Virus record (IMG/VR): IMGVR_UViG_3300049437_000032
Location: 1-42,090 of that record
Reading direction: 5' to 3' (one strand)
Length of the DNA: 42,090 nt
Source of the DNA: a virus
Taxonomy: Duplodnaviria; Caudoviricetes
Made by a program: the position numbers and the translations under genes. Below the pieces are notes generated by a model that saw nothing but the letters and a program-made list of their open reading frames with translations, did not search any database and was not told where the DNA came from. This document shows, piece by piece, positions 51-42,009 of the stretch (the first letter of the stretch is position 1; each line of letters begins with the position of its first letter).

Positions 51-127
51 GGAAAGGTAGCTCAGCTGGTTAGAGCACGGCACTCATAATGCCGGGGTCG
101 AGGGTTCGAGTCCCTCCCTTTCCACCA
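51..127 (+). tRNA. tRNA-Met (CAT), elongator type; prophage integration target
   Basis: 77-nt cloverleaf: acceptor GGAAAGG/CCTTTCC, D-arm GCTC/GAGC, anticodon stem CGGCA/TGCCG with loop CTCATAA, T-arm GAGGG-TTCGAGT-CCCTC, encoded CCA. The G1-C72 pair argues against initiator; Ile2 is not fully excluded. Confidence 0.95.
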
Positions 128-2867: not shown

Positions 2868-3778
2868 GCCGCCCTCCGGATCTCATCGAGCACGCGCGAC
2901 GCCATCAGTGGCGGGATCGCGTTGCCCAGAAGGTGCTTTGCCAACTGCACCTGTGGCGGCAAGAGGTACGTGTCCGGGAAGCTCATCGCTCGGCGGCTTT
3001 CCGCCACGCTGAGGAAGCGCGCGCGGTTCCCCTTCACGATGAGCCAACGGTCCTTGGTTGTGAGCGTACCGATGGGCCGGTCAACGCTGCGGCCTGTCAT
3101 CCCGGAGCCGCGGCTGTAGTAGGGCGCCACGAACCGCTCGCCGTGTTCCCGTCGGCCCGCCTGAATCCGAGCGAACGATCGCGGCCTGAAGCGGCGGCGG
3201 CTGATGACGGGCCAGTCGCCCCTATCCCAGTCGATGATGGCCGCGACCGGCTGATGCGCGGCGCGGCGCGGCTTCAGGATCAGCGGCGCCTTGGAGCGTG
3301 AAGCGACGAGGATCAGCCGCACCCGCTCCTGCGGGACGCCGAAGTCAGCGGCGTTCAGGATGTGGGGCGAGAGCGTGTAGCCGAGCGCGCGCATCGCCTC
3401 GCACCAGGCGGGCCATAGCACCCACTTCGTCCATGCCGGAACGTTCTCGCAGACGATGATGGCCGGGCGCTTCGCCTCGGCGCAGTCGACGACGGCCCAG
3501 GCCGTCGAACGAGAGGCATCGTGGCGCGGCTGATCCTTGCCGCGGGCTGGTGAATGCCCCTGGCACGATGGGGAGGCCAGTAGGATGTCGAAGTCTGGCA
3601 GATCGTGAAAGTCCGCCTGCCGCAAGTCCTGGCAGGAGTGCAGGACCCGCGGATGGTTGCGACGGTGCCAGTCGACCGCGACCGGCCAATGGTTCGCCGC
3701 GTACACGACGCGGATACCGGCCGACTCGGCCCCTTCTGTGAAGCCGCCGAGGCCCGCGAAGAGATCGGCGGCGTTCAT
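2864..3778 (-). CDS. DNA (cytosine-5) methyltransferase, orphan
   Basis: Motif I DLFAGLGG, IV SPSCQ, VI ENV, VIII PQERVR, X LLGNAI; ATG at 3778 overlaps the RT stop. Confidence 0.93.
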   Translation of the reverse strand: MNAADLFAGLGGFTEGAESAGIRVVYAANHWPVAVDWHRRNHPRVLHSCQDLRQADFHDLPDFDILLASPSCQGHSPARGKDQPRHDASRSTAWAVVDCAEAKRPAIIVCENVPAWTKWVLWPAWCEAMRALGYTLSPHILNAADFGVPQERVRLILVASRSKAPLILKPRRAAHQPVAAIIDWDRGDWPVISRRRFRPRSFARIQAGRREHGERFVAPYYSRGSGMTGRSVDRPIGTLTTKDRWLIVKGNRARFLSVAESRRAMSFPDTYLLPPQVQLAKHLLGNAIPPLMASRVLDEIRRAA

Positions 3779-5052
3779 GCGTTCCCTCGCGGCAGCCATG
3801 GGAATCGCTTCCGCAGCCTCGCCAGCAATCGGTGATGCCGCGCGTGGCGGAAATGCCCGAGGTAGCTCGCCCACAGGCTCTGCCGCCGATCGAGCGCCTC
3901 GACCGGGATCACCGCGCCCGTGCAGTACTGCCGTTCCCAGGCGGCGAGCTTCTCGCGAGCGTGGCCGATGACACGCTCGCGCACGACCGTGTGATACGGG
4001 TAGATCACGTACCCTAGGAAATCGATGCCGGCGCCGAGCCTTCGGAGGCGCTGATCGGCCTTGAGTTCGAGCCGGAGTTCCGCCTTCAGGAACGCGGCGA
4101 TCGCGACACGCCAGCGTTCGAGCTGCTCGGCGTCCCGGTGCACGAGCACGAAGTCGTCGACGTAGCGAACATAGCGCGGCACCTTCAGCGAGTGCTTGAC
4201 GAACTGGTCGAGCCGATCGAGGTAGACGTTCGCAAAGAACTGCGAGGACAGATTGCCGATGGCAATGCCACAGCCCGGCCCCGCGTTCTCCAGGCGCTTG
4301 TGCGGCGGCACCGCTGCACGCTCGGCATCGGTGCAGGCCCACCGAACACCGGTCCGCGAGAGCGGGTAGTTGAGCAGCGCGTGCACGGCCTTGCGCGCCT
4401 CGATCGAGAGGCCCGCGCGCTCCATCCGGATCTTCAGCAGCTCGTAGAGCGTCGGCCGGTGGATGGAGTTGAAGAAGTTCCTGATGTCGAGCTGTAGATA
4501 GGACCCGCCGCCCTGGCCTGACTCCACCTGGCGCACCATGCCGCGGAGCCGCTCGACGGCCATGTGTGTGCCCTTGCCGGCACGATTCGAGAAGCTGTCG
4601 TGGATGAACGTCGGCTCGTAGATTCGCTCCAACTGCGGGACGAGCCAGTGGTGCACGACGCGATCGGCGAACGCCGGGGCGTGAATCTCCCGCGCCTTCG
4701 GGGCGATCGCGATAAAGCACGTGGGCGGCGATGGGTGCCAGGTCTGCGCCCGCAGCCGTGCCTCCAGCTCGAGCAGCCTGTCGATGTAGTGGGCATGGAA
4801 GTCGGCTTGCCCCGCGCTGGGCTTCTTCCCGCGGCGGGCTTCCCGGTAGGCAGCATGGAGAGCGCGGAAGGTGGGTGAACCCTGACACTCACCGGCGAGA
4901 ACCGCGCGAACGCGCCCCTGATTGCTCTGGTGGCTGCGGTTGGAATTGCCGTTGTTGAGGTTGACGTTCCACGCGTAGCCCGAGGGGGCAGCAGCTATCC
5001 CGAGCGCTTGGAACTCCGGCGGGCATCCTTGTGGGTAGCACGTCGTCGTCAT
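3775..5052 (-). CDS. DGR reverse transcriptase (TR lies in-frame in its 5' end)
   Basis: PKAREI, FADRVVHH, DSFSNRAGKGTH, LDIRNFFNSI, GIAIGNLSSQFFAN (DGR-type SQ motif), RYVDD, GIDFLGY; ATG at 5052 overlaps the avd stop. Confidence 0.95.
   Translation of the reverse strand: MTTTCYPQGCPPEFQALGIAAAPSGYAWNVNLNNGNSNRSHQSNQGRVRAVLAGECQGSPTFRALHAAYREARRGKKPSAGQADFHAHYIDRLLELEARLRAQTWHPSPPTCFIAIAPKAREIHAPAFADRVVHHWLVPQLERIYEPTFIHDSFSNRAGKGTHMAVERLRGMVRQVESGQGGGSYLQLDIRNFFNSIHRPTLYELLKIRMERAGLSIEARKAVHALLNYPLSRTGVRWACTDAERAAVPPHKRLENAGPGCGIAIGNLSSQFFANVYLDRLDQFVKHSLKVPRYVRYVDDFVLVHRDAEQLERWRVAIAAFLKAELRLELKADQRLRRLGAGIDFLGYVIYPYHTVVRERVIGHAREKLAAWERQYCTGAVIPVEALDRRQSLWASYLGHFRHARHHRLLARLRKRFPWLPRGNA
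4891..4995 (-). repeat. DGR template repeat (TR), 105 bp
   Basis: AAC/AAT-rich, with 20 adenines in 13 codons (reads AAAPSGYAWNVNLNNGNSNRSHQSNQGRVRAVLAG); three copies elsewhere differ almost only at its adenines. Confidence 0.97.
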
Positions 5053-5486
5053 GGTGCTGCCTCTTGCGAGGCGGCCCGGGAACTCAGTGTCCGAGCGCGC
5101 TGGGCAGGACTTGCGGCCTGCCCATTCTGGCTCTGCGAATACAACTCCTTCAGCCACCCTCCACACTGCCGACCGAGATTGGTGACGAGCCGCGCCAGGG
5201 CGTCGAACTCGCCAAAACTGCGAAATGCGCTCACGTCCTTGGCGAGCTGCATGGAATCCTTCAGATCATCAATCGCCTCGGAAAGATCCTGCGCGAGCTT
5301 CCGCCGGCGATGCATCGCCTTGGACAGCCACGCCTGACGCACGAGCCGGACCACGGCCCGCGCGTCCCGACGCAGATCCCCGCCGCTGTCATAGCGATCG
5401 GTGCGCTTGAAACGCGTCACCGCCTGTTCTATGGCAGCCCGGACGCGCTGCGCATCGAGCCAGATTTGAGGCAAGTTCCTACGCAT
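5049..5486 (-). CDS. avd: DGR accessory variability determinant (Avd, four-helix bundle)
   Basis: 145-aa basic helical protein between VR1 and TR/RT; FKRTDRYDSGGDLR and LGRQCGGWLK resemble Avd/23S-IVP bundle motifs. Confidence 0.88.
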   Translation of the reverse strand: MRRNLPQIWLDAQRVRAAIEQAVTRFKRTDRYDSGGDLRRDARAVVRLVRQAWLSKAMHRRRKLAQDLSEAIDDLKDSMQLAKDVSAFRSFGEFDALARLVTNLGRQCGGWLKELYSQSQNGQAASPAQRARTLSSRAASQEAAP

Positions 5487-5495
5487 CAGCCCGTC

Positions 5496-6068
5496 TCAGA
5501 TCCCAAGTCCAAGCTGCTGACCGGCGAGAACCGCGCGAACGCGCCCCTGAGCGCTCTGGTGGCTGCGGTCGGAACCGCCGCCGTCGAGGTCGACGAGCCA
5601 CGCGAAGCCCGAGGGGGCAGCAGCGACGGTGCGCGTCCAGAGCCAGTCATACGGGCCCCGGAAATAGGCGGGATCGACGGCCGGGTCGCAGCGTTCGTAG
5701 TCGATGATCGTGAGCGTCTGGCGAATCTCGGAGGCGAGCCAGGCGGAGCTGCCGAACAGGCGGACGGCCGCCGCGGCTTCGAGCGCCTTCGCGTGCTCGA
5801 CCTGGCCGCACGCCAGCGCATGCGTCCAGACGAGATCGGTCTCGCGATCCCAGGTGACGAGCCAGCGGTCGATGGCAGCGTCGTGGACTTCCTCGCGGTC
5901 GGCATCCAGCCGCAGGAAGCGGCCCTTCGCGATCGGGAGGCGCTTCGGCGTTGCCGGCCGCGGCTGCTCGTCCAGGAGCCGCTCCGCGATGCGCAGCAGT
6001 TCGATGGGCGTGGCGCCCTGAATGTGGCGGGCGAAGACGCCGCGCAGGTCGGTGGCGAGTGTGCTCAT
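5496..6068 (-). CDS. DGR target protein 1, DUF1566/Lcl-C (C-type lectin-like) domain
   Basis: DRETDLVW...W....IRQTLTIIDY...PAVDPAYF....WLWT..AW.V...G....RVRAV pattern; carries VR1 at its 3' end. Confidence 0.9.
   Translation of the reverse strand: MSTLATDLRGVFARHIQGATPIELLRIAERLLDEQPRPATPKRLPIAKGRFLRLDADREEVHDAAIDRWLVTWDRETDLVWTHALACGQVEHAKALEAAAAVRLFGSSAWLASEIRQTLTIIDYERCDPAVDPAYFRGPYDWLWTRTVAAAPSGFAWLVDLDGGGSDRSHQSAQGRVRAVLAGQQLGLGI
5520..5624 (-). repeat. DGR variable repeat VR1
   Basis: 12 mismatches to TR over 105 bp, all at TR adenines, no indels. Confidence 0.97.
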
Positions 6069-6100
6069 GGCAATCCTTGGGTGATGCACCGAGTTCCGAA

Positions 6101-6541
6101 TTACTGACCGGCGAGAACCGCGCGAACGCGCCCCTGAGCGCTCTGGTGGCTGCGGTTGGAAAGGCCGAAGTCGAGGTCGACGAGCCACGCGGAGCCCGAG
6201 GGGGCAGCAGCGCGGGTCCGCGTCCAGGTCCAGTCGCAGCCGGGCTCCTCGGCGTCGGGGAAGAACTTCACCGGCAACACCTGGCGCTGTAAGCGATCGC
6301 ACCAGAGGAAGGCCTCTTCGACTTCGGGCGCGCGCACGGCGCGGCCGGCGATGGTCGCGGCATCGGCCGCGGCGATCGCCGCCTCGTGCGGCAGTTCCTG
6401 CTCGCTCATCAGGGCGGCCACGATCTGCGAGATCGCGACGCCGCAGATCGTGCGGCTGACGCGTACGAACGGGTGCGGCTGCGGGTGATCTTCCGGCAGT
6501 TCGTTCAGGTCGGCATCGAGCTTGGTGTAGGTGACGGTCAT
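6101..6541 (-). CDS. DGR target protein 2, DUF1566-like
   Basis: 146 aa, AGGA RBS; RAPEVEE, WTWTRT..AW.V motifs; carries VR2. Confidence 0.9.
   Translation of the reverse strand: MTVTYTKLDADLNELPEDHPQPHPFVRVSRTICGVAISQIVAALMSEQELPHEAAIAAADAATIAGRAVRAPEVEEAFLWCDRLQRQVLPVKFFPDAEEPGCDWTWTRTRAAAPSGSAWLVDLDFGLSNRSHQSAQGRVRAVLAGQ
6107..6211 (-). repeat. DGR variable repeat VR2
   Basis: 11 mismatches to TR, all at TR adenines. Confidence 0.97.
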
Positions 6542-6571
6542 GGGAGATTCCTTCTGTGATGTGGAGAACGT

Positions 6572-6938
6572 CTAGAGCAAGGTCACTTGTTCAGGCACGA
6601 CGATGAGTTCGAGCGCGGCCTGGTCGGGCCGCCAGTCGTTGCTCTTCGCCTGGTTGCAGCTCTCCGGCACCACCCGCAGATTCCACGGCACGGTAAGCCC
6701 GCAGACGTAGGGGTGCTGAACGGGAATGATGTGGTCGACCACGTGCCTGCGCCCGGTGCGCAGCGTGAGTTCCTTCGCGCGCAGGCGAAGCGCGTCGAGC
6801 GCCTTGCGATCGACCCAGGGCGGCGTCGCGAGCGCGACGGCAATGAGCCGCTTTCGCCGGCTGTGACGCTCGAGCCAGGGCGGGTGATCGCCGGCAACGA
6901 TCCGCGCGCCAGGCGGGCGACCATCGTTGCGAGCTCAT
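6572..6938 (-). pseudogene. HNH endonuclease lacking an in-frame start (frameshifted or readthrough)
   Basis: Frame 6934-6572 encodes ATPPWVD...HVVDHIIPVQHPYVCGLTVPWNLRVVPESCNQAKSN; the coupled ATG at 6938 is in a different frame. Confidence 0.7.
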
Positions 6939-7255
6939 GCTTGCAGCTCCGCGCGAAGGCGCTGGCGCTTGAGGCACCAGCCGCGGCGATGCGGGTAGTG
7001 CGCCTCCAGGCAGTGGCATAGCACCTTGCGATGCTCGCGGCGCAGCGTGCGGTTGTAGTCGACGCGAAGCGGACCACGGCACACACGGCAGCGTTTCCCG
7101 CGCTGATAGGTGGCCGGATGCTTGGCGAGCGTGACCCGGGTCCGGCAGCCGTAGTTGCCGCAGACGCATTTCCAGCGGCGCTTCGTCGTGCAGGACGCGC
7201 GGCGATACTCCGGCTTGCGGTGCTGGCCGGCATCACAGCGCAGACGCCGGCGCAC
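6935..7255 (-). CDS. Cys/His-rich putative zinc-binding protein
   Basis: CVCGNYGC, CRVC and CHC...HYPHRRGWC motifs; start uncertain. Confidence 0.65.
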   Translation of the reverse strand: MRRRLRCDAGQHRKPEYRRASCTTKRRWKCVCGNYGCRTRVTLAKHPATYQRGKRCRVCRGPLRVDYNRTLRREHRKVLCHCLEAHYPHRRGWCLKRQRLRAELQA

Positions 7256-7592
7256 CGGTTCCCTCGACGAGGCTCTTCCACACGGTCACGGGCTGGGTGT
7301 GCGTCGTGGCATCGCCGTAGTTCGTGAAGCCATCGCGCTTGATCCAGCCGCGGCGCGCTGCCGCCCGCATCACCGCGCCCCATGCGTAGGGGCTTGGCGG
7401 GAGGTCGAGGCCCTGCGCATGCACGAGCGTGCGCACCTCGGCGGCAATCACGGGCTTGCCCGGGTGCTCGCGCAGGTAGCGATGCACGTAGTCGAGTGCG
7501 CGATCGCTCCAGCCCGGCGCCTCGGCCTCGGCATGATCGGCCGCGCGATGCATGCCGAGCTCGGCGCCCACGACGCCGGCGGCCGAGCTCAT
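7233..7592 (-). CDS. hypothetical phage protein (possible winged helix)
   Basis: ATGA-coupled; PPSPYAWGAVMRAAARRGWI motif. Confidence 0.75.
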   Translation of the reverse strand: MSSAAGVVGAELGMHRAADHAEAEAPGWSDRALDYVHRYLREHPGKPVIAAEVRTLVHAQGLDLPPSPYAWGAVMRAAARRGWIKRDGFTNYGDATTHTQPVTVWKSLVEGTGAPASAL

Positions 7593-7846
7593 GACTTCAC
7601 CGCGAGGCCGTGGGCCTCGAAGTACCGCAGCGCGAGGTTCGGCACGTGTCGCCGCTGAAACGAGCCTGTCGGCGTGCGGACCATGAGCAGCACGTCGTCG
7701 CCGGATGCGGCAATCGGCCGTAGCGCGGTTTCGGCCTCGGTGATGCGCGCGGCGAGCGCAATGTTCTGCTCGCGGAGCTCAGCAACCGACGGGTATTCCG
7801 CGGCCAGGAGGTCGAGCGCCGCGAGCTTCTGCCTGTCGAGCCTCAC
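7589..7846 (-). CDS. hypothetical protein
   Basis: GTGA-coupled start at 7846; fills the operon gap exactly. Confidence 0.65.
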   Translation of the reverse strand: MRLDRQKLAALDLLAAEYPSVAELREQNIALAARITEAETALRPIAASGDDVLLMVRTPTGSFQRRHVPNLALRYFEAHGLAVKS

Positions 7847-8529
7847 GCCGCACCGCTGGCGAGCTGCTTCTCGCACCACACGCGCACGCCCGGGCCAATG
7901 ATCGCCGCGGCGTCGCCTTTCAGCGCGCGCACCTGGGCGCCGATCTTCTTCTCGTCGGGGATCGTGAATGCGCCGTTGATCTTCGACGGATCGGTGATCT
8001 CGAATTTCCAGACCTCGCGCGTCGACAGGCCCATGACCTTCGGCGGCTCGCGCTGGATCACCGGCACCACGACGGTCGCCGCGCGCTGCGCGAGCTCGTC
8101 GGCGCGCTCGACGCGGCCGGATTCCTGCGCCTTGGCGGACTGCCGCTCGAGGCGCTCGCGCTCCTTGCGCGCGCGTTCTTCGGCCTCGGCCTGCTCACGC
8201 CGGCGGATGCGGTCCTGCTCGTCCTGGTAGGCGATCAGGCTGCGCTTAGTCACGCTCTCGGCCTGGGCGATGCGCTCGAGGCGCGGCTTGAACAGCGCAC
8301 GCACCGCGTTGAGGGTGGTCATCAGCGGCCGCGTGATGCTGTCCTGGAGCGCCTCAACGCGTTTCTGCTCGGCCTTCACTTCCTTGAGGAACTGGCCGGC
8401 GCTCTCGTACTCGGCGGGCGTGGCGATCACGAGCGCTGCGGCACGCCCGGCGATGCGCTCGGCGATCTGGCCGGCTTCGGCCACCTCCGGCGCGTTGGTG
8501 AAATCAGGCTGCGCAGATGTTGCGGCCAT
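7843..8529 (-). CDS. coiled-coil protein of the recombination module
   Basis: Long heptad-rich region followed by a small beta domain (WKFEITDPSKI..PDEKKI); adjacent to exonuclease and Bet. Confidence 0.8.
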   Translation of the reverse strand: MAATSAQPDFTNAPEVAEAGQIAERIAGRAAALVIATPAEYESAGQFLKEVKAEQKRVEALQDSITRPLMTTLNAVRALFKPRLERIAQAESVTKRSLIAYQDEQDRIRRREQAEAEERARKERERLERQSAKAQESGRVERADELAQRAATVVVPVIQREPPKVMGLSTREVWKFEITDPSKINGAFTIPDEKKIGAQVRALKGDAAAIIGPGVRVWCEKQLASGAA

Positions 8530-9100
8530 GCTTGCTTCTCCAGTTGTGGACGTTCAGGACGGATAGAAAGTTGTGCCAGTCGGTTGACTCGGTGAGGCGT
8601 TCGCTGCGGTAAGTGCCATCGCCGCGCAGTTGCACGACGCGCCGGCGGATCCGCGGTTCGTCGATCGCTTGGGCATAAGCGATGGTTTGCGGACCGACCG
8701 TGAAAGGGATGGCCGCGGTGCTCTTGATGTCGGTGAGCTCGCGCACGCCGGCGATGCGCGTGAGCGTGTCGAGCGTGCCGCAGTAGCGGTGCTTCTGATT
8801 CGCCACGCGAATTTCGCTCGCGACGATCACCGCGCGCGTGTCGGCCTGGAACTTGCGCCAGGCCTCGACGTAGGGCACGAGCGCGACGTCGAGCGTGTGC
8901 CAGTCGAGCACGCCGAGATTGTCCAGGTGGCAAGCCTGGTGGACGTGCGTACCGAACTTCGCCGCGGCCTCGAGGATGTGCGGCGGGATCCCGTCGAGCA
9001 GCTGCAACGGCTCGAGGATCTGCGTCACGCTCGGCCACACCTGACCACCGACGCGGTAGGTGTGGCTCTCGGCGTCGAATTGAAGATCAGCCGCCTGCAA
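8504..9100 (-). CDS. PD-(D/E)XK exonuclease of phage recombination module
   Basis: FDAESHTY, PSVTQIL, GTHVH, E...YCGTLD...DIKS, Q..AY motifs. Confidence 0.85.
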   Translation of the reverse strand: MQAADLQFDAESHTYRVGGQVWPSVTQILEPLQLLDGIPPHILEAAAKFGTHVHQACHLDNLGVLDWHTLDVALVPYVEAWRKFQADTRAVIVASEIRVANQKHRYCGTLDTLTRIAGVRELTDIKSTAAIPFTVGPQTIAYAQAIDEPRIRRRVVQLRGDGTYRSERLTESTDWHNFLSVLNVHNWRSKHGRNICAA

Positions 9101-10022
9101 GGCTGCGCTCTATGCCGGCGAGGTACTCGCGCGCGTTGGCCACTTGGTTCAGCGGCAGCTCATCGACGGCACCAATCTCGAAGTGTGCGCAGAACTCGCT
9201 CTCGGGAATGCCCAGGCGGTCAATGGTTCCGCGCAGCTCTTCGACCGGGACGTGAGTGACCTCGGTCTGCGTCTCGGCGCGCGCCTGCGGCGCGGTCGTG
9301 GTCGGCTTGCCCTGGGGCGCCGGCGCCAGTTCGACATCGAACGTGCGGCCTTCCATTTCCTCGGCCGCGTGCTGGCCGCCTATCTCGTCGGGAAACGCTT
9401 CGCGCAGGCCGGCGCCCTCACAGCACTTCGTCATCATCTGGACCGGCGAGCGTGTCCAGCGCGCATTTGCGACCGGTTTGCCGCTCTGCTTGTCGCGCTT
9501 CGTCGCACAGACCTCGGCGAACAGCACGCGCACCGGAAACTCAATCCGCTGCTCGGACAATTCGTGCCAGCGATACATCGTCATCGAGCACCAGGCCGGC
9601 GCCTCGATTCCGAAGATCTCGATGACCGGGCCATAAGTCGGCTCGGAGTGACCGAGATAGAGCTCGGTGCGCGTGGCGGTGGTGCGCAGCTCGTAGATCC
9701 CGGGCATTACGACGTCTCGCCACACGTAGGTGCCGGTCTTGGAATCTTTGACCTCAATCGGAACGATGTGGCACGGCTTCTTGAGCGGATCGAGCTTCCG
9801 CGCCATGCAGTAGTCCCAGACCATGAGCACCGAATTGACGTCGGCGCCGGGGTAAAGGCTGTTGACCATCGTGCGCCACTGCGCTTCGTTGATCCCGCGA
9901 CGAGCGACTGGCTCCGGCAGCGCGGGCTCGCGCGGCGCGACCGGCTGCGAAGCAGCGGGCGGCGGCGTGGTCGGTTGTGCCTGCGCCGGCGGTGCCTGGC
10001 GTGTCTGTGTGCGTGCGTGCAT
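9087..10022 (-). CDS. bet: single-strand annealing recombinase (Bet/RecT family)
   Basis: YCMARKLDPLKKPCHIVP, W...PVQMMTKCCEGAGLREAFPD....AEEM motifs. Confidence 0.9.
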   Translation of the reverse strand: MHARTQTRQAPPAQAQPTTPPPAASQPVAPREPALPEPVARRGINEAQWRTMVNSLYPGADVNSVLMVWDYCMARKLDPLKKPCHIVPIEVKDSKTGTYVWRDVVMPGIYELRTTATRTELYLGHSEPTYGPVIEIFGIEAPAWCSMTMYRWHELSEQRIEFPVRVLFAEVCATKRDKQSGKPVANARWTRSPVQMMTKCCEGAGLREAFPDEIGGQHAAEEMEGRTFDVELAPAPQGKPTTTAPQARAETQTEVTHVPVEELRGTIDRLGIPESEFCAHFEIGAVDELPLNQVANAREYLAGIERSLAGG

Positions 10023-10041
10023 GCGTGTTCTCTGTGGTGAA

Positions 10042-10236
10042 TCAGTGCCAGCGGTAGCGGCGCCAGCCGAGCCGGCGGCGCTCGCGGTTCAGCGCCATCT
10101 GCCGGACATGCGCGCGCCAGCGGCGGCGGATGAGGTAGGCGGTGATTCGCAGCTCGCGCGAGTACGCGATGCCGAGCCAGATCGCGAGCGCGAGGGCAAG
10201 ACCGACGAGCTCGGCGGGCGTGAGTGCGGCGCTCAT
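10042..10236 (-). CDS. small membrane protein with Arg-rich tail
   Basis: ATGA-coupled; hydrophobic segment LVGLALALAIWLGIAY. Confidence 0.6.
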   Translation of the reverse strand: MSAALTPAELVGLALALAIWLGIAYSRELRITAYLIRRRWRAHVRQMALNRERRRLGWRRYRWH

Positions 10237-10472
10237 GACTGGTGCCAGTGCAGCCACGCTGCGGTGGACCCTGCCGCGACGATCGTGAGGATGATCCAGG
10301 GCAGCCAGTCGTCGAGGCGGTCCCACAACGACACGCGGGTCGCCTTGGGAAACATCAAGGCGACTCGCGCGTCATCCTCTTCGCGCGTCTCCGGTGGCGC
10401 TTCGGCGCCCACGTCCTCGCCGATCCAGCGCCAGAAGGCATCAGCGACGCGGCTGCGCGACCTCTTCTTCAC
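10233..10472 (-). CDS. small protein with C-terminal transmembrane segment
   Basis: GTGA-coupled; WLPWIILTIVAAGSTAAWL. Confidence 0.6.
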   Translation of the reverse strand: MKKRSRSRVADAFWRWIGEDVGAEAPPETREEDDARVALMFPKATRVSLWDRLDDWLPWIILTIVAAGSTAAWLHWHQS

Positions 10473-10894
10473 GCTGCCGCCTTCGCGCGCTGCGCGCTGA
10501 GCATCTTCAGCTGAAGGTGGAGCGACCGCAGTTCGTCGATCTGTGGCTGTACGCCCATCGCGAGTCGGCCGGCCTTCTGCTCGATGTCGAGAACGCCCAA
10601 GGCGAGCTCCAGCGCGCCGACGAGGCCCGCGGTTGCGACGACCAGCGTTGCCAGGGGGATCTCGGCCTGCGGCGCTGGCATCACGATGCGGCGCGCCGGC
10701 CGGCGGCACCGCGGACACACTGCGGCGTAACGCCGTCCCGGCATCGGGCGGCCGTCATTGGCCTCATCGCCAAGCGACGCGCCCATGTCGGTCATATCGG
10801 GCCGCGTGCCGATCCAGTCGCAGTGTTCGCCGCTGCACGCGTAGGTCATTTCGCGTCGCAGGGGCGTGGTCACGAGATCCGCGGCAACGCTCAT
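10469..10894 (-). CDS. hypothetical zinc-ribbon protein
   Basis: ATGA-coupled to target 3; CSGEHCDWIG...CPRC. Confidence 0.7.
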   Translation of the reverse strand: MSVAADLVTTPLRREMTYACSGEHCDWIGTRPDMTDMGASLGDEANDGRPMPGRRYAAVCPRCRRPARRIVMPAPQAEIPLATLVVATAGLVGALELALGVLDIEQKAGRLAMGVQPQIDELRSLHLQLKMLSAQRAKAAA

Positions 10895-11397
10895 GCCGCG
10901 GCCTTCATGCGACGCGGAGCGCGCTTCGCACCGGTCCCAGTCCCAAGCGGCTGACCGGCGAGAACCGCGCGAACGCGCCCCCGACCGCCCTGGTGGCTGC
11001 GGTAGGAATCGCCGCCGTTGAGGAAGACGCCCCACGCGCCGCCCGAGGGGGCAGCAGCGGTGCCGGTCCATTCCCACTGATAGCGGTCCTGGACGGTGAA
11101 GTAGTTCGTGTCGATCGCGGGCCCGTAGAGCTCGTCCTCGATCAGGTGCGCGACGTACTCGAGGTGGGAGAGCGCGCGCCAGTCCGGGCGGCCGAAGAGC
11201 GTGACGGCGGCGGCCTCAGCGTTCGCGCGCTTCCAGTCGACGGCGCCGCAGGGCAGGGTGTCGCGCGTGACGGTGAAGTCGGCAGCGGGGATGTAGACCG
11301 CCGTCCAGTCCTTCGCGGACTTCGGCAGCAGCAGGCCCTTCGCGGAGACCTTGACCAGGCGCTCGGGGGAGGGCTTGGGGGCGCGGGCGGGGCTCAT
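10891..11397 (-). CDS. DGR target protein 3 (remote), DUF1566-like
   Basis: LFGRPDWRALSHLE, PAIDTNYF, WEWTGT..AWGV; paralogue of target 1; carries VR3. Confidence 0.9.
   Translation of the reverse strand: MSPARAPKPSPERLVKVSAKGLLLPKSAKDWTAVYIPAADFTVTRDTLPCGAVDWKRANAEAAAVTLFGRPDWRALSHLEYVAHLIEDELYGPAIDTNYFTVQDRYQWEWTGTAAAPSGGAWGVFLNGGDSYRSHQGGRGRVRAVLAGQPLGTGTGAKRAPRRMKAAA
10954..11058 (-). repeat. DGR variable repeat VR3 (about 6 kb from TR)
   Basis: 14 mismatches to TR, 13 at adenines and one T>G. Confidence 0.95.
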
Positions 11398-11778: not shown

Positions 11779-11818
11779 ACAGTATACGATAGGAAACCCT
11801 AAGTCAACCGATGGAAAC
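11779..11818 (-). promoter_or_regulatory. PL-like promoter with two repressor operators
   Basis: Minus strand TTGACT (11807-11802), 17 bp, TACTGT (11784-11779); operators GTATAC-GATA-GGAAAC (11782-11797) and GTCAAC-CGAT-GGAAAC (11803-11818). Confidence 0.7.
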
Positions 11819-11825
11819 CGCAGTA

Positions 11826-12407
11826 TTACAGCCCACTGGGACTTCCCCTCGTGCGCGCTCGATCCTGCTCGGCGGTGTGCGCCTTCGACCAATAGAGAAC
11901 TTGATGCATGGCAAAATTATTGTCGCCCTTAAGGCTGTGAATCACGATCGTCTTGGGCGTGTCCCACTGCTCGTACCACGTAGCACGGCCTGCACCAATT
12001 TCACTCGCAATAGCTTTCAGCGAATCCGAACCATCTCGAATGAGCGACGGGTCAACATGGGCGGCTTCCTTTGTAGGCTTGCCGTAACGTTTCACCAGCC
12101 CGTCACTGATGCGGAAGAAGTCGAGGAATTGGTCTTGGTTCGACATACTCTCAGCGAAGAACACGTAGAAAGCATTCGTCAACTTCCCCTCTAAGAACCT
12201 GAAGATGACGCTTCCCTGGACGTCTCCAATGCGTACGTCGTAACGCCAAGTTTCGCCGTCGCGTTTGATTGGTTCACCCTCAGCGAGTAGCACCTGCTCG
12301 CGAGTATCCCCCCAGTTGTTCTGGCGAAAGTCAGGTTCGGCCGCGTCAGCGTTCAAATGGAACAGCATGAATAGCGCGGCGGATGCCCACACGAATCTTG
12401 CTTTCAC
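11826..12407 (-). CDS. exported protein with signal peptide downstream of cI (lysogenic-conversion or exclusion candidate)
   Basis: MKARFVWASAALFMLFHLNADA signal peptide; DFRQNNWGDTREQV; visibly lower GC. Confidence 0.8.
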   Translation of the reverse strand: MKARFVWASAALFMLFHLNADAAEPDFRQNNWGDTREQVLLAEGEPIKRDGETWRYDVRIGDVQGSVIFRFLEGKLTNAFYVFFAESMSNQDQFLDFFRISDGLVKRYGKPTKEAAHVDPSLIRDGSDSLKAIASEIGAGRATWYEQWDTPKTIVIHSLKGDNNFAMHQVLYWSKAHTAEQDRARTRGSPSGL

Positions 12408-12411
12408 TTCG

Positions 12412-12834
12412 CTAGGCCTCGTCTTTTGATTTTACCTTCGGTGCGTCGCGCTTCGCTGCCCGCTCACCTTCGGCACGGCTCCACGTCGCATATCTTTCGC
12501 TGTGCGCGGCTGACAGTGTAGTCACTAGGGATCGTATGTCCGCGCGGATCTCCGGTGGCAGTCGGCCATACATCTGCATGAGTTCCAACCTGTGACGAGG
12601 CAGCGCCTCTTGGCGCATGCTCGCGATGCCGGTAGCCAGCTCTCGCGGATCAATTCCAAATTCATCCGCGAGTTTAAAGAACACATCAAGGTCGATGTTC
12701 GGGCTCGCAGCAGCCTCCCATTTCGAGACCGCGGCCTTGGTCACGCCGAGCTTCTTCCCGAGTTCCGGCTGCGTCAGTTTCTTTGCTTCACGCAAGCGCT
12801 TGATACGCTGGCCGCGGGTTTCTCTAGTTTCCAT
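12412..12834 (-). CDS. cI: CI-like repressor (XRE HTH, no S24 peptidase domain)
   Basis: GQRIKRLREAKKLTQPELGKKLGVTKAAVSKWE; 140 aa; divergent from cro. Confidence 0.88.
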   Translation of the reverse strand: METRETRGQRIKRLREAKKLTQPELGKKLGVTKAAVSKWEAAASPNIDLDVFFKLADEFGIDPRELATGIASMRQEALPRHRLELMQMYGRLPPEIRADIRSLVTTLSAAHSERYATWSRAEGERAAKRDAPKVKSKDEA

Positions 12835-12900
12835 TGGGAAACAGTTTCCACCGCGAGAGGTTTCCAGTGGTTGACCATTAGGTATCGCGTGAGATACCGT
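12827..12900. promoter_or_regulatory. OR operators and PR-like promoter
   Basis: 16-bp sites GTTTCC-ATTG-GGAAAC (12827-42), GTTTCC-AGTG-GTTGAC (12860-75), GTATCG-CGTG-AGATAC (12882-97); TTGACC (12871-76), 18 bp, TACCGT (12895-900). Confidence 0.7.
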
Positions 12901-12907
12901 GCCGGGC

Positions 12908-13153
12908 ATGCGCAAGTCAGAAGCCATCGAGTACTTCGGGTCGGCGACAGCCGTTGCGCGGGCTCTTGGCATCGGAAAAGCCTTCGTCAGCAAATGGGGC
13001 GTTGAGGTTCCGCCGCGATACCAGTACGAACTGGAGCGATTGACGAAGGGAGACCCGAAAGGGGGGCTGAAGGCCGATTGGCCGCCGCGCGATAGACCAA
13101 ACATGCCGCGGGCTCGAGGCGTTCAGCGCGCTCCCAAGCTTGAGGCTGTGTAG
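12908..13153 (+). CDS. cro: Cro-like repressor (P22/N15 Cro type)
   Basis: MRKSEAIEYFGSATAVARALGIGKAFVSKWG.EVPP.YQYELERLT.G.LKAD. Confidence 0.88.
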   Translation: MRKSEAIEYFGSATAVARALGIGKAFVSKWGVEVPPRYQYELERLTKGDPKGGLKADWPPRDRPNMPRARGVQRAPKLEAV

Positions 13154-17183: not shown

Positions 17184-17546
17184 ATGTCGACCGATACCGA
17201 AATCGAAAAGACCATCGAAGAGCGCGGGCTCACGGCTCCGCGCGTCTCGCCCGCCGACGTTCAGGCGGCGATCGCCAACGAGTACTTCTTCACGGCAGCG
17301 GACGGATTCCGCGCTTGCGAGGCACACCGCGGCGTGTTCGAGCCGCCGTCGATCCCGCAGTCCATGTCGTTGCTCACCATCTGCGTGCTGGTGCTGCGCA
17401 ACGGCTTCACGGTCGTTGGCACGTCGGCGTGCGCGAGCCCGGAGAACTTCGACGCCGAGATCGGCTGCAAGGTTGCCCGGACCAAAGCCGTCGAGCAGAT
17501 CTGGCCGCTGCTCGGATACAGCCTGCGCGACAGGCTGAACGGCTAG
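17184..17546 (+). CDS. Gp49/Gp66-like phage protein
   Basis: TAPRVSP...LTICVLVLRNGFTVVGTSACASPENFDAEIG...IWPLLGY.L. Confidence 0.88.
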   Translation: MSTDTEIEKTIEERGLTAPRVSPADVQAAIANEYFFTAADGFRACEAHRGVFEPPSIPQSMSLLTICVLVLRNGFTVVGTSACASPENFDAEIGCKVARTKAVEQIWPLLGYSLRDRLNG

Positions 17547-24015: not shown

Positions 24016-26451
24016 GTGGCTGACGAAATCACCGAACAGCGCGAGGCAGAGGTCATCGCGGGCCTCGAGCGAATCCTCACCGCGTCGCGCTCGGTCGATG
24101 CACGTGCCTTCGCGCCAAAGCCTCTCTCGACCGTCCTTGTCGCCGATCGCGACGGTATCCACCGCGGACTCGCGGATCTCGGAGATTTCGACGTGAAGCG
24201 ACTCAAGGGCGTGCTCAAGCCGCGCGCAGCGCCGGTGACGGACGTCACCGCGCCTGGCGTGATCTCGGATCTACACATCAGCCTGAACGGCCAGGTGGCG
24301 GTGCTGGACAGCTCGCCGGCACCCGACAACGTGGCCGTGCTCGGTTACGTCGACGAGCGCCAGGTCGACAGCGGATCGTGGACCGCGCTCGACCCGATCC
24401 CGGGCACGCGCCGCGAGGACTCCGCGACGACAGGCTTCGCGGGCTCGACCGTCACGTATCGCCGCCGGGCGCTCGACCACGCTGGCAACTACTCCGCGAA
24501 CTATTCGAACGTCGTGAGCGCGATCATCCCCGTGCTTGCGCCTGCTGACACCGCACCGCCTAGCCGGCCCATGTCCGTGACGGTCACGCCTGGCGCGGGC
24601 AAGGTCACGGTGTCGCATCAGGCCTCGACCGATCCCTACGTCGCGGCGGCGGGCGAAATGGCCGAGTACCGCTACTTCCGCGACGGCGTGCTGGTCGCCA
24701 CGCTGGCGACCGCGGCGGGCTCTTCGCCGCAGTTCTTGCTCCAGAACATCGGCGGTGCGTCGCCGGCCCCAACTGCCGTGCAGGCCAATGACGGCAGTTG
24801 GGCGCTCACCTCGACCGGCAAGTTCGATGCGCTGGCCGCAGACCTGGGCGGGTTCCTGGCGACGCAGCGCACGGGCGACTTTCGCCTCACGGTTCAGGTC
24901 GACGCGGTGGCGAACGTCTCCGGCTCGTCGGTTCCGAGCTTGCTGGTTCAGGCGCGCGAGTCGCTGGCGCCTGGCTCGAAGCACATCTCGATCTTCCTGC
25001 TCGGCAGCTACGCGGCGGGGGGCGTCGGAATGCGCAGCCGCAGCGCCACGGATGCTGTGGCGGTCAACGGCACCATCATCGCCGGCGTGTTCGCGCCAGC
25101 CCTGCTCGACATCCAGCGCGTCGGCGACGTCTTCACGCTCTCGTATGGTCAGAACCTCAACGCGCTCACGACGCTGTGGAGCGGCAGCTATTCTTTGGCC
25201 TCAACGCTGTACTGGGGAATCCCGCTCGGGGAGTACTTCGGCTCCGCAGCGACGGCCTCGATCAGCAACGTCAACGCCACGAGCGAGAGCGCCGTGTCGC
25301 AGGACATTCCCGCGACTCTCTCTGGCAGCTATCAGGTCTCAGCTCTGGATTCCACTGGCAACGAGAGCGTGCGCTCCGTCGCTGTCGTCGGCTCGCCGAT
25401 CACGAACGCGATCAAGTGGCATCCTGGGCACTACATGGCGCTCGACAAGCACCGCTTCAGTCCGGCGCAGCAGGCGGCGGACTTCGCGGAGATCGACGCC
25501 TACGCGACCAACCCGAGCATCAAGGGCGTCTACATCTGGCGCTACTGGGACGAGCTGGAGGGCGACACCGCGGGCGACTATTCGAGCGGGTTCGCCAACG
25601 TCGACGCGTACGTTGCGAAGTGCGCTTCGAAGGGCCTGAGATTCATGCTCGTCCTGAACGAGCGGCAGTTTGCCGCTCCCTGGCCGGCCGGGCATCCGGT
25701 GTCGTCGGATATGCAGGGCTTCGCCCCGGCGTATCTGTTGAGTTCGTCGTTCGGCGCGGTGAACGCCGGCACCGCGGAATTCGGCGGTGTCGTCGCGTCG
25801 CCGTCCGGTGTGGTATGGGCCGGAAGCCTCAGGGCCATTGCCCGTAGTTGGACGGCGACCATCGCCGATCGTCTGATCGCGCTCTCCGCAGCGTACGCGA
25901 ACCGATACGACGCCAACCCGCACTTCGAGATGTTCGCCATCGACGCCGAGACGTCCGTTGGCGGCCCCCCGCCGAGCTTCTCGTACGCCGCCTACATCGC
26001 GCAACTCAAGCGCATTTACGGCGCGGCCCGCGCGCAGTGGCTGAAGACGCAGGTGCGCGCCTATCCGAACTATCTCGATACCGACGCTCGCATGCAGGAC
26101 TTCATGGACTGGTGCGCAGCGAACGGCGTGACGATGGGTGGCCCGGACACCGCGGACGCGCGCAACGTCCAGTCCGATCGGATGTGGGTCGGGGAAGTCG
26201 GCAGCACCGACTATCGCGGGCTGGTCCCGTGGGTGGCCGAGTACCAGAACCCGGTGGCGAGCTACTACGGCACGCCGACGGCGGAGTACACCTTCGCGAA
26301 GACTGTGCTGCGCATGGCCTACATGCTGTGGAACGTGCACAACGGCTCGACGTCGCCGAAGGGCCCCTCCGACATCATGGCGTGCATCAGCGCCAACCCC
26401 ACCATGGGCCAGCCCACGGCGCCGGCCGGGTGGGTCGTGGATACGGGCTGA
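24016..26451 (+). CDS. multidomain protein: FN3-like repeats, lectin-like beta-sandwich, glycoside-hydrolase-like barrel
   Basis: DVTAP/DTAPPS...YRRRALDHAGNYS and YQVSALDSTGNES FN3 signatures; C-terminal IKWHPGHYM...W.ELEG...GDY...RYD.NP.FE...ETS. Confidence 0.75.
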   Translation: MADEITEQREAEVIAGLERILTASRSVDARAFAPKPLSTVLVADRDGIHRGLADLGDFDVKRLKGVLKPRAAPVTDVTAPGVISDLHISLNGQVAVLDSSPAPDNVAVLGYVDERQVDSGSWTALDPIPGTRREDSATTGFAGSTVTYRRRALDHAGNYSANYSNVVSAIIPVLAPADTAPPSRPMSVTVTPGAGKVTVSHQASTDPYVAAAGEMAEYRYFRDGVLVATLATAAGSSPQFLLQNIGGASPAPTAVQANDGSWALTSTGKFDALAADLGGFLATQRTGDFRLTVQVDAVANVSGSSVPSLLVQARESLAPGSKHISIFLLGSYAAGGVGMRSRSATDAVAVNGTIIAGVFAPALLDIQRVGDVFTLSYGQNLNALTTLWSGSYSLASTLYWGIPLGEYFGSAATASISNVNATSESAVSQDIPATLSGSYQVSALDSTGNESVRSVAVVGSPITNAIKWHPGHYMALDKHRFSPAQQAADFAEIDAYATNPSIKGVYIWRYWDELEGDTAGDYSSGFANVDAYVAKCASKGLRFMLVLNERQFAAPWPAGHPVSSDMQGFAPAYLLSSSFGAVNAGTAEFGGVVASPSGVVWAGSLRAIARSWTATIADRLIALSAAYANRYDANPHFEMFAIDAETSVGGPPPSFSYAAYIAQLKRIYGAARAQWLKTQVRAYPNYLDTDARMQDFMDWCAANGVTMGGPDTADARNVQSDRMWVGEVGSTDYRGLVPWVAEYQNPVASYYGTPTAEYTFAKTVLRMAYMLWNVHNGSTSPKGPSDIMACISANPTMGQPTAPAGWVVDTG

Positions 26452-26452
26452 C

Positions 26453-37933: not shown

Positions 37934-39829
37934 ATGACCGTTGAAACCCTCGCGTCGCGGCAGCGGTATCTCGGCGACGGCGCATCGTCGCAGTTCGATT
38001 TCACCTTCCCGTACGCGGACAATGCCGACATTCGGCTCATCCAGAAGGTCGGCGGCGTCGAGACCGCGCTCATCGAGGGCGCGCAGTATTCGCTGACGCG
38101 AGTTGGCGCCGGCGGACGCATCAACCTGGGCGGGGCGCTGGTCAATAACGGCGTACTTGCGGTGCTTCGGGATCCGGCACCGATCCAGGGCGTCGACCTC
38201 ACCAGCAACGATCGCTATTTCCTCGAGACCATCGAGGCGCAGTTCGACCGGCAGGCCATGGTGCTCCAGCGGCATCGGGATCTGCTCACGCGCTCGATCG
38301 TGCTCGCCGAAACCGACGTTGACGGCTCGGGCGCCTACCAGGCGCGCGGCAACCGCATCGGCGGGCTGGCGGCCGGCGTCAACGCATCGGACGCCGTGAC
38401 CGTGGCGCAGCTCGCCGCGGTGGCGGGTGGAGATCTGCTGGTCACGCCTGGCACGATCGCGGCCGTGACCGCGCTGGTGATCACCGATCCTTCCCTGCTC
38501 GCCCTGTTCGGGCCGATCAACTCGCAGATCGGCAGCCTCGTCGACGACATCGCGGATCTCGATGCGGCGCTCGCGGCGCTGTCGCAGATCGCCGGCGACC
38601 CGAACAACATCATCACGCTGATCACCACCGAGACCACGAACCGGATCGCGGGCGATACAGCTCTCGCGCAGACGGTCGCGAAGCTCGGCGCGCTCTCGGG
38701 CGATTCCCTCGCGTTCATCCTGAACCTGAACACCGCCAAGGTGTCGAGCACGGAGTCGCTCGCGCAGCGGCTCGACGGCATCGCCTCGCGCTTCAACTCA
38801 AACGAGGCGGCGATCCTCTCCGAGCAGACGGCGCGCGCGAATGGCGATGGTGCGCTCGCGGCGTCCATCTCCACCGTGCAATCGACGCTCGGAGCGAACA
38901 CCGCCACGGTGCAGACGCTCCAGAGCTCGGTCAACGGCGTACTCGCGAAATACGCCGTCAAGATCGACAACAACGGCTATATCACGGGCTTCGGCTTGTT
39001 GTCAGGGCCGAACAACGGTTCGATTGTCTCGGCCTTCGTGGTGCTCGCCGATCAGTTCCGCGTCGTGACGCCTGGCGCCACCCCGCAGTCTCCCTTTGAG
39101 ATCATCGGCGGCATCGTGTACGCGAAGAATCTCGTCGTGCGCAACGCGCAGATCGAGAACCTCACCATCACGAAGCTGACGGGCGGAACGCTCAACGGCG
39201 ACATGGCGATGGGTACGGGCCGAATCATCTGGAACACGGGCGCGGTGATGAAGGTTTCGGGGTTGGGCTTCGGCAGCGCCAACCAGTTCATCGAGTGGGT
39301 GGGGCCTGCCGTGGGAAGCCTCTCGCTGTGCACCGAGGCAAACGCCACGAGTTACCTGAAGGTCGACGGCAGCGCCTATTTTGGCGGCACGCTGTCGGCG
39401 GGCGTGCTCAAGAGTTCCGCCACCACGTCGAGCACGAGCGTGGCGGCCGAGATCATCAATGGTCCGTACGGCAGCAACGGCGGAACGATCCAGGTCATCC
39501 TGTCGTACATCTTCACGGGCACGCGCTCGTTCGCGGAGGCCGGCTTCAACAGCGGTAGCGGTCCGATCAGCGCCACCGTGCAGCTCTACCGCAAGATCGG
39601 CGCCGGCTCCGAGACGCTCGTGGCTACGCTGAACGTCGCGGGCCTGTGGACCTGGGAGAAGGAAGAGGGCACGCGCTACGAGACCGAGCAGATGGGCGGC
39701 TCGCTCACCTACACGGATACCGCTGCCACCGCCCAGGATCGGACCTATCGGGCCGTCATCACCGCGCGCTCGGTGGTGTTCACCTCCGGCACCATCAGCC
39801 AGCGCGTCACCATTCAGTCAACCGAGTGA
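37934..39829 (+). CDS. tail fibre: podovirus-type N-terminal anchor, coiled coil, lambda-J/DUF1983-like segment
   Basis: YLGDGASSQFDFTFPY...IEAQFDRQAM..Q; YAVKIDNNGYITGFGL...SAFVVLADQFRV. Confidence 0.82.
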   Translation: MTVETLASRQRYLGDGASSQFDFTFPYADNADIRLIQKVGGVETALIEGAQYSLTRVGAGGRINLGGALVNNGVLAVLRDPAPIQGVDLTSNDRYFLETIEAQFDRQAMVLQRHRDLLTRSIVLAETDVDGSGAYQARGNRIGGLAAGVNASDAVTVAQLAAVAGGDLLVTPGTIAAVTALVITDPSLLALFGPINSQIGSLVDDIADLDAALAALSQIAGDPNNIITLITTETTNRIAGDTALAQTVAKLGALSGDSLAFILNLNTAKVSSTESLAQRLDGIASRFNSNEAAILSEQTARANGDGALAASISTVQSTLGANTATVQTLQSSVNGVLAKYAVKIDNNGYITGFGLLSGPNNGSIVSAFVVLADQFRVVTPGATPQSPFEIIGGIVYAKNLVVRNAQIENLTITKLTGGTLNGDMAMGTGRIIWNTGAVMKVSGLGFGSANQFIEWVGPAVGSLSLCTEANATSYLKVDGSAYFGGTLSAGVLKSSATTSSTSVAAEIINGPYGSNGGTIQVILSYIFTGTRSFAEAGFNSGSGPISATVQLYRKIGAGSETLVATLNVAGLWTWEKEEGTRYETEQMGGSLTYTDTAATAQDRTYRAVITARSVVFTSGTISQRVTIQSTE

Positions 39830-41858: not shown

Positions 41859-41963
41859 ACACCCCCACCATCGGACGCGACATTCAAGGACATAGGCGGC
41901 GCGAGGCGCACGTCGCGCGCCCGCAAGCTGTTGATCCGCTTACGCTCTTCGCTTGGCCTTGGA

Positions 41964-42009
41964 ACTCATAATGCCGGGGTCGAGGGTTCGAGTCCCTCCC
42001 TTTCCACCA
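41964..42009 (+). repeat. attR core
   Basis: 46-bp exact duplicate of 82-127. Confidence 0.97.

What the first reader, a model, noticed from the sequence alone, without database searches (positions are those of the whole stretch)
3775..11397. Three-target DGR that diversifies early, non-virion lectin-fold proteins instead of the tail fibre
Seen: RT (SQ and YVDD motifs), avd, one 105-bp TR and three VRs with 12/12, 11/11 and 13/14 mismatches at TR adenines. The 20 TR adenines give a theoretical 4^20 (about 1e12) DNA variants per target. The targets are 190, 146 and 168 aa with no signal peptide, TM segment or fibre anchor. All lie in the repressor-controlled leftward operon, far from the virion genes, and I found no TR-like sequence in the tail fibre or other structural genes. 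Established: the archetypal phage DGR (BPP-1) mutates the receptor-binding protein Mtd, and this phage has a BPP-1-like virion module. Inference: hypermutation is aimed at a family of intracellular binders made on induction, for example evolvable anti-defence or host-takeover adaptors. This is the best candidate for an undescribed system here. DUF1566 DGR targets are known, but I do not know of an established function for them in an early phage operon.
Basis: partly seen in the sequence, partly recalled or inferred. Interest (0 to 1): 0.92.

Follow-up and report, generated by a model that had tools for sequence, protein, structure and literature searches.

The report
Early-gene phage mutator of paired lectins
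A dormant bacterial virus carries an intact targeted-mutation system (a DGR) of an already catalogued kind that has rewritten the tips of three small lectin-fold proteins encoded among its early genes; these are predicted to pair up and likely bind proteins inside the infected cell, possibly host defences, but no ligand is known.

Summary
It is not a one-off: 71 of 74 related viral loci show early-arm marker genes and 61 of 66 have two or more small targets. The lineage is catalogued (Wu 2018 CLec2/d1, same RT clade; Roux 2021 'non-structural/unknown'; phage Magia), and this scan has reported the layout at least eight times on other DNA. I found no paper on its early-operon position or function. 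Added here: an operator-like 17-mer shared by the leftward and cro promoters; a predicted target homodimer (0.54 against 0.02) that joins two variable strands; cellular Lcl_C domains mostly come in tandem pairs; one relative's VR-bearing target is fused to an Acb4-family anti-CBASS sponge domain. Against: such fusions are rare, every solved structural relative of known role is a surface binder, and VR alleles were invariant in bioreactor contigs. Best reading: early, paired, cytoplasmic binders, most likely counter-defence; untested.

The parts
3775..5052 (-). DGR reverse transcriptase, 425 aa from the ATG overlapping the avd stop; the TR lies in its 5' part, true start not shown
   Evidence: PHROG 1423 E 2e-94, RVT_1; frame; RT frame open through the TR in 75 of 75 loci
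4891..4995 (-). template repeat (TR), 20 adenines in 13 codons
5049..5486 (-). avd accessory gene, 145 aa
   Evidence: PHROG 3206 E 9e-12; NF033474 E 1e-4, below its cut-off
5496..6068 (-). target 1 (190 aa): N-terminal helical hairpin plus Lcl_C CLec domain; predicted homodimer
5520..5624 (-). VR1, 12 of 12 mismatches at TR adenines
6101..6541 (-). target 2 (146 aa), stand-alone Lcl_C domain of a distinct positional subfamily
6107..6211 (-). VR2, 11 of 11 mismatches at TR adenines
10891..11397 (-). target 3 (168 aa), non-adjacent, second gene of the leftward operon
10954..11058 (-). VR3, 13 of 14 mismatches at TR adenines
8504..10022 (-). RecT-like annealing protein and exonuclease, same operon (context)
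11803..11819 (-). operator-like 17-mer over a TTGAC hexamer at the head of the leftward operon (inferred OL/pL)
   Evidence: 15 of 17 identical to 12859-12875
12859..12875 (+). matching 17-mer upstream of cro (inferred OR/pR)
12412..12849 (-). CI-like repressor (context); cro at 12899-13153 on +
51..127 (+). tRNA-Met at the left prophage end; 49-nt repeat at 41961-42009; integrase 70-1239
37934..39829 (+). tail fibre, not a DGR target (context)
   Evidence: PF03906 and PF09327 hits; no TR match

Best explanation
This is an intact phage DGR that has rewritten three small lectin-fold genes in the prophage's early leftward operon; the proteins are likely made only after induction or infection, are predicted to work as pairs, and likely bind and block host proteins in the cytoplasm, most probably anti-phage defence components. 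Shown: TR, VRs, avd, RT, fold, gene position, A-specific differences between close relatives. Inferred: CI represses the operon in the lysogen, so mutagenesis and target expression are confined to lytic growth, next to RecT/exonuclease and phage replication. Predicted: two subunits pair their variable strands into one composite surface, and different targets could combine like two antibody chains (heterodimers untested). Inferred and weakest: the ligand is a fast-changing defence protein.
For: All genes from 11750 to 2688 are co-oriented with gaps of -26 to +69 nt, downstream of a 17-mer that matches the cro-promoter 17-mer at 15 of 17. Of 74 viral relatives with a VR, 56 have cI/cro/cII/replication markers upstream, 57 integrase or excisionase downstream, 71 at least one early-arm marker (not dereplicated). 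144 target ORFs have median 146 aa (105-259), 0 lipoboxes, 1 TM-like stretch. The same small targets occur with a podovirus module (window), a predicted myophage (Magia) and phages with J-like tail proteins, which argues against a virion anchor. Target-1 homodimer score 0.54, best of 3 controls 0.02; the mark was reached by 20 of 30 solved homodimers and 1 of 23 monomers; runs agree in at least 47% of contacts, pLDDT at least 82; interface includes residues 163-168 of the VR. In 271 longer Lcl_C proteins 916 of 1024 domains sit in close tandem pairs. 61 of 66 loci with 6 kb or more upstream have two or more targets, and targets 1 and 2 match their positional counterparts best (8 of 8 and 7 of 8) with no similarity to each other outside the VR. 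L038's VR-bearing target is PF13876 + Lcl_C, P0002 likewise; PF13876 is the Acb4 sponge family (10.1101/2024.12.30.630793) and fusion to it was used to find new anti-defence proteins (PMC12265669).
Against: No ligand, localisation or expression data. Acb4 fusions are rare: 2 of the best 120 hits, 0 of 80 further loci, and early-arm domains fuse promiscuously (PF04447 in P0236, unassigned modules in P0224). The top structural matches are surface adhesins and receptors (Lcl Z 11.8, Bd2740 10.2, intimin 9.8), and longer relatives carry Ig-like and adhesin domains. [quoted passage not shown] VR alleles were identical in contigs of the bioreactor runs. The operator test is modest: 21 of up to 400 random windows reached a looser threshold, and the promoter scan listed neither site.
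Confidence: 0.4

Rival explanations
1. Cytoplasmic binders for other conflicts: host takeover, or blocking co-infecting phages, satellites or receptor-assembly proteins during lytic growth.
For: Same positional evidence as the best reading; lambdoid leftward arms carry takeover and exclusion functions (established knowledge, recalled).
Against: Conserved host machines give little reason for 1e11-fold diversity (inference); a repressed operon cannot protect the lysogen; the only recognised defence-related fusion partner is Acb4.
Confidence: 0.25
2. Surface binders after all: made early but loaded non-covalently on the virion or released at lysis, binding glycans or receptors as their structural relatives do.
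For: Lcl, intimin, invasin, Mtd are the structural matches; neighbouring RT lineages (RT 35-50% identical) often have long 500-1350 aa targets; Roux 2021 left open that PC_00009 holds unrecognised structural proteins.
Against: No anchor, signal or lipobox; early-arm position in 71 of 74 loci; shared across virion types; the phage has its own tail fibre.
Confidence: 0.2
3. A passenger cassette: the DGR lodges in the accessory-tolerant early arm, profits from phage recombination genes, and its targets give little benefit.
For: Target number and position vary; some VRs are frameshifted; no standing variation seen here.
Against: Positional subfamilies persist at 33-47% identity; the variable codon after the conserved Trp showed Asn in under 1% and Tyr in 2% of 72 VRs, against 6-16% and 15-28% at other variable codons, which suggests selection for a folded protein; remote targets keep the VR-flanking motif.
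Confidence: 0.1

Closest known systems
CLec2/DUF1566 DGRs, architecture B1, target code d1, of Wu et al. 2018 (PMC5758913 Table S1): Rhodanobacter thiooxydans LCS2, Ralstonia solanacearum CMR15, Stenotrophomonas sp. SKA14
   Same: TG-avd-TR-RT order, short DUF1566-only targets, non-adjacent extra targets (three in CMR15), no or weak stem-loop; LCS2 is my locus L084, RT 60% identical and in the same 29-row clade.
   Different: The three rows seen leave the phage column empty and the passages read give no function or early-operon position.
DGR of Burkholderia phage Magia (PMC7883833), and Pseudomonas phages Haboob and Cruim01
   Same: Two or three small Lcl_C targets with A-specific VRs, avd and RT downstream of the repressor among recombination genes.
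   Different: RT only 37% identical and on a separate long branch; the Magia paper suggests adaptation or host range and does not discuss early expression.
Roux et al. 2021 clade 3 / target cluster PC_00009 (PMC8144416)
   Same: Mixed phage and cellular DGRs of Proteobacteria with targets classed non-structural/unknown.
   Different: Membership of this RT in clade 3 is inferred from target type, not tested; no mechanism proposed there.
Bordetella phage BPP-1 DGR (mtd-avd-TR-brt)
   Same: Core parts, adenine-specific mutagenesis, C-terminal VR on a CLec fold (Mtd Z 8.0).
   Different: Three small early genes instead of one tail adhesin; no GC-rich hairpin after the VRs; TR inside the RT frame.
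Legionella Lcl C-terminal domain (PDB 8Q4E)
   Same: Closest solved fold: Z 11.8, rmsd 3.0 A over 113 residues; profile E 6e-5.
   Different: Lcl is a bacterial surface protein (recalled); the targets are stand-alone and hypervariable.

Membership tests
Diversity-generating retroelement | TR-VR pairs differing at TR adenines | tested here: met
   36 of 37 mismatches
Diversity-generating retroelement | DGR-type RT with intact motifs next to the TR | tested here: met
   PHROG 1423 E 2e-94; YVDD; open frame
Diversity-generating retroelement | avd accessory gene | tested here: met
   PHROG 3206 E 9e-12; NCBIfam hit below cut-off
Diversity-generating retroelement | VR at the C-terminus of a CLec-fold protein | tested here: met
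   model pLDDT 91, Lcl/TvpA/Mtd matches
Diversity-generating retroelement | IMH-like GC-rich 3' end that differs from the TR downstream | tested here: met
   VRs continue CAG in 99% of 138 unique ends, TRs GAG in all 61
Diversity-generating retroelement | ongoing mutagenesis in this phage | tested here: inconclusive
   no variant alleles in contigs; no raw reads; relatives differ at 12-19 of 23-27 adenine sites
Wu 2018 CLec2 / d1 / B1 type | short DUF1566-only targets in TG-avd-TR-RT order | tested here: met
Wu 2018 CLec2 / d1 / B1 type | RT groups with a catalogued member | tested here: met
   29-row clade with L084, SH-aLRT 99, quick tree without bootstrap
BPP-1-type tropism-switching DGR | target is the virion receptor-binding protein | tested here: not met
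   tail fibre has no TR match (46 of 85 at best anywhere else); virion presence of the small targets itself untested
BPP-1-type tropism-switching DGR | GC-rich hairpin after the VR | tested here: not met
   mean folding z 0.14, 5% of 138 below -2
Phage anti-defence protein | inhibits a defence system in vivo | not testable with these tools
   only guilt by position and a rare Acb4 fusion in a relative
Roux 2021 clade 3 / PC_00009 | RT placed in clade 3 and target in PC_00009 by their profiles | not tested
   their profiles were not used

The most novel reading that the evidence does not exclude
Temperate phages of Gammaproteobacteria carry an intracellular, antibody-like repertoire: two or more separately hypermutated lectin-fold chains pair into composite binding sites (about 1e11 variants per chain, multiplied in heterodimers) that are selected during lytic growth to neutralise whichever bacterial immune proteins the host carries; an adaptive counter-defence system of phages, evolved in at least two RT lineages.
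Probability: 0.2. Interest if true: 0.92.

Novelty: new member of a known kind. Interest (0 to 1): 0.52.

Why it matters
Phage DGRs are taught as host-range switches. A lineage of hundreds of prophage DGRs aims instead at small early proteins whose job is unknown; Roux 2021 left this class unexplained. Cultured phages with the same layout (Magia, Haboob, Cruim01) make the question testable now. If the targets are paired cytoplasmic binders of defence proteins, this would be an evolvable counter-immune system and a natural scaffold of about 140 residues for intracellular binders. This particular locus is one more example rather than the first.

Tried and rejected
Reads: 14 runs hold the stretch, all DNA contigs of 2025 bioreactor metagenomes, no RNA holder listed; 7 of 14 were laid. 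The eight differences listed on VR1 in X2 and X5 are the VR3 contig laid on VR1, not variants. One 283-nt contig at depth 2.7 with 10 differences from the TR is unresolved. Amino-acid bias: Tyr/Gly/Ser enrichment and Cys/Ile/Arg depletion at AAY codons looked like paratope selection but PMC12875486 reports such a bias as intrinsic to the RT, so it is not used. I first recalled PF13876 as Tad1; the papers and PDB 9E4W show it is Acb4. The profile search for more Acb4 fusions was swamped by multi-domain cellular proteins and the contig scan gave none in 80. The first 'longer' search started at 407 aa and missed mid-size fusions. The N-terminal hairpin of target 1 gave no usable Atlas hit. Target 1 had no hit among cultured phages, though more distant cultured examples exist. 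Foldseek gave no PDB match at E 0.001 or better. NCBIfam gave nothing for the targets; PADLOC was not scanned. The host could not be assigned from the record; Gammaproteobacteria is inferred from RT relatives. The full ML tree did not finish; the quick tree is used. A second fold (pLDDT 93) added nothing.
Full report
Observation. The window is one whole prophage: a tRNA-Met at 51-127, a 49-nt repeat of its 3' part at 41961-42009, an integrase, a cI/cro switch and a podovirus-type virion module. The TR (4891-4995, minus strand) has 20 adenines; VR1, VR2 and VR3 differ from it at 12, 11 and 14 positions, 36 of 37 opposite adenines. The 13 variable codons allow 7.0e11 protein variants and no stop. 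RT and Avd hit PHROG 1423 and 3206; the three targets hit Lcl_C/PF07603. Nothing else in the window resembles the TR (46 of 85 at best), including the tail fibre at 37934-39829. The capsid protein hit no Bordetella phage among 49 records, so 'BPP-1-like' is loose.

Position. Genes from 11750 to 2688 run in one direction with gaps of -26 to +69 nt and include RecT, an exonuclease and a methylase. At the head lies GGTTTCCATCGGTTGAC (11803-11819, minus), 15 of 17 identical to a site upstream of cro (12859-12875), both ending in a TTGAC hexamer. This fits paired CI operators, but the statistics are modest (4 of 100 shuffles gave as many motif matches; 21 of up to 400 random windows reached a looser threshold) and the promoter scan listed neither. 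Repressor control is therefore inferred.

Relatives. The RT found 592 related viral stretches, of which the best 80 were fetched. 74 of the 80 had a detectable VR; the rest were cut short or gave none. Using family labels from one PHROG-scanned representative each (81 of 110 families scanned), 56 of 74 have cI, cro, cII or replication genes upstream, 57 integrase or excisionase downstream, 44 both, 71 at least one early-arm marker (duplicates not removed). Among 66 loci with at least 6 kb upstream, 5 have one target, 49 two, 11 three, 1 four. The 144 target ORFs have median length 146 aa, no lipobox and one marginal TM-like stretch (crude tests). Across 142 unique VRs 2018 of 3398 adenine sites differ against 26 of 11596 others (the search favoured this pattern by design). 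Named hosts with RT identity above 55% are mainly Xanthomonadales-type genera plus Marinobacter and a Burkholderiales bin. A quick tree of 57 chosen RTs puts the window in a 29-row clade (SH-aLRT 99) with Rhodanobacter thiooxydans LCS2; Magia, Haboob and Cruim01 form a separate long branch yet have the same layout. More distant RTs often have long targets.

Activity. Distinct close relatives whose targets are 94-98% identical outside the VR differ at 12-19 of 23-27 adenine sites, while identical copies differ at none: the lineage is active over time. For this phage, contigs of 7 of 14 holding runs showed the window's alleles wherever they covered a VR; X1 and X2 may be the source, the others cover single VRs at depth 2-7. 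Contigs drop rare variants and a repressed operon would be silent in a lysogen, so this neither shows nor excludes present activity.

Cis signals. After the VR, 99% of 138 unique ends continue CAG followed by a TYGG...TTTGG-like direct repeat (runs of 5 or more in 37% against 8% of shuffles), with no hairpin; TRs continue GAGTGTC. The RT frame is open through the whole TR in 75 of 75 loci, 74 with an upstream ATG.

Structure. Target 1 folds confidently (pLDDT 91): a helical hairpin at 2-33 and a CLec domain, closest to Legionella Lcl CTD (Z 11.8, rmsd 3.0, 113 residues), then Bd2740, intimin, TvpA and Mtd. Two copies gave a predicted dimer: 0.54, best control 0.02; 20 of 30 solved homodimers and 1 of 23 monomers reach the mark; runs share at least 47% of contacts, pLDDT at least 82. 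The interface pairs residues 163-168, three of them variable (163, 165, 167), so the two variable faces would adjoin. Independent support: in 271 longer Lcl_C proteins, 916 of 1024 domains lie in close tandem pairs, and even counts dominate (94 with two, 21 with three, 85 with four) (these searches favour multi-domain hits). Targets 1 and 2 belong to old positional subfamilies. Against: the interface is not more conserved than the rest, and heterodimers were not modelled.

Function. One relative (L038) has a VR-bearing target fused to PF13876, and P0002 is a second such fusion at 45% identity without known context. PF13876 is the Acb4 anti-CBASS sponge family (10.1101/2024.12.30.630793, passages); fusion to it led to a new anti-defence family (PMC12265669, passages; DUF1566 does not occur in its main text, and I did not see its supplements). 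The clue is thin: no further fusion in 80 loci, and other early-arm domains fuse too. I therefore give counter-defence 0.4, other cytoplasmic conflict 0.25, surface binding 0.2, passenger 0.1.

What is known. Wu 2018 (PMC5758913; passages, section 13, three supplement rows) lists this type, including LCS2 and a three-target Ralstonia case, with the phage column empty in those rows. Roux 2021 (PMC8144416; sections 8-9, passages, supplement passages with files 9 and 12 unsearched) calls PC_00009 non-structural/unknown and partly prophage-borne. The Magia announcement (PMC7883833, main text) notes short targets and suggests host range. PMC10053308 (passages) speculates on cytosolic VR proteins for bacterial immunity; PMC11661182 (one passage) only lists the domain; PMC12875486 (passages) covers RT bias. 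Searches showed no paper, by listing, on early-operon position or function; the library lacks most subscription journals. This scan has noted the layout on at least eight other windows.

Verdict. A real, intact DGR; a new member of a catalogued but unexplained phage lineage. The open question it poses is good and testable, and the pairing model and Acb4 fusion sharpen it, but function remains inferred. Interest 0.52.

Noticed in passing
window 17184-17546 (+): Stand-alone PF13876 gene (E 3e-30; E 1.5e-5 to Acb4, PDB 9E4W) between the terminase subunits: a likely anti-CBASS sponge of this phage.
   Followed up: partly
L038 1159-1896 (+); protein P0002: Acb4-family domain fused to a VR-bearing Lcl_C domain.
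   Followed up: yes
protein P0236: dATP/dGTP pyrophosphohydrolase (PF04447) fused to an Lcl_C domain of this type; no context.
   Followed up: partly
window 4891-5052 and relatives L001-L080: TR lies in frame inside the RT ORF in 75 of 75 loci; RT may carry an Asn-rich N-terminal extension or be translationally coupled to avd through the TR.
   Followed up: partly
window 11826-12407 (-): 193-aa gene right behind cI with a signal-peptide-like N-terminus and no family hit; candidate lysogen-expressed envelope protein.
   Followed up: no
window 6572-6938 (-): Frame with an HNH-like motif (recognised by eye, no NCBIfam hit) that lacks an in-frame start; possibly frameshifted.
   Followed up: partly
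window 24016-28369 (+): Three large genes (811, 250, 387 aa) between capsid and tail-tube genes without Pfam hits, one weakly Hoc-like: possible decoration or adhesion proteins.
   Followed up: no
L098, L105, L107, L114, L141, L145, L226: More distant DGRs pair one long target (750-1270 aa) upstream with a second, mostly 170-200 aa, target downstream of the RT.
   Followed up: no
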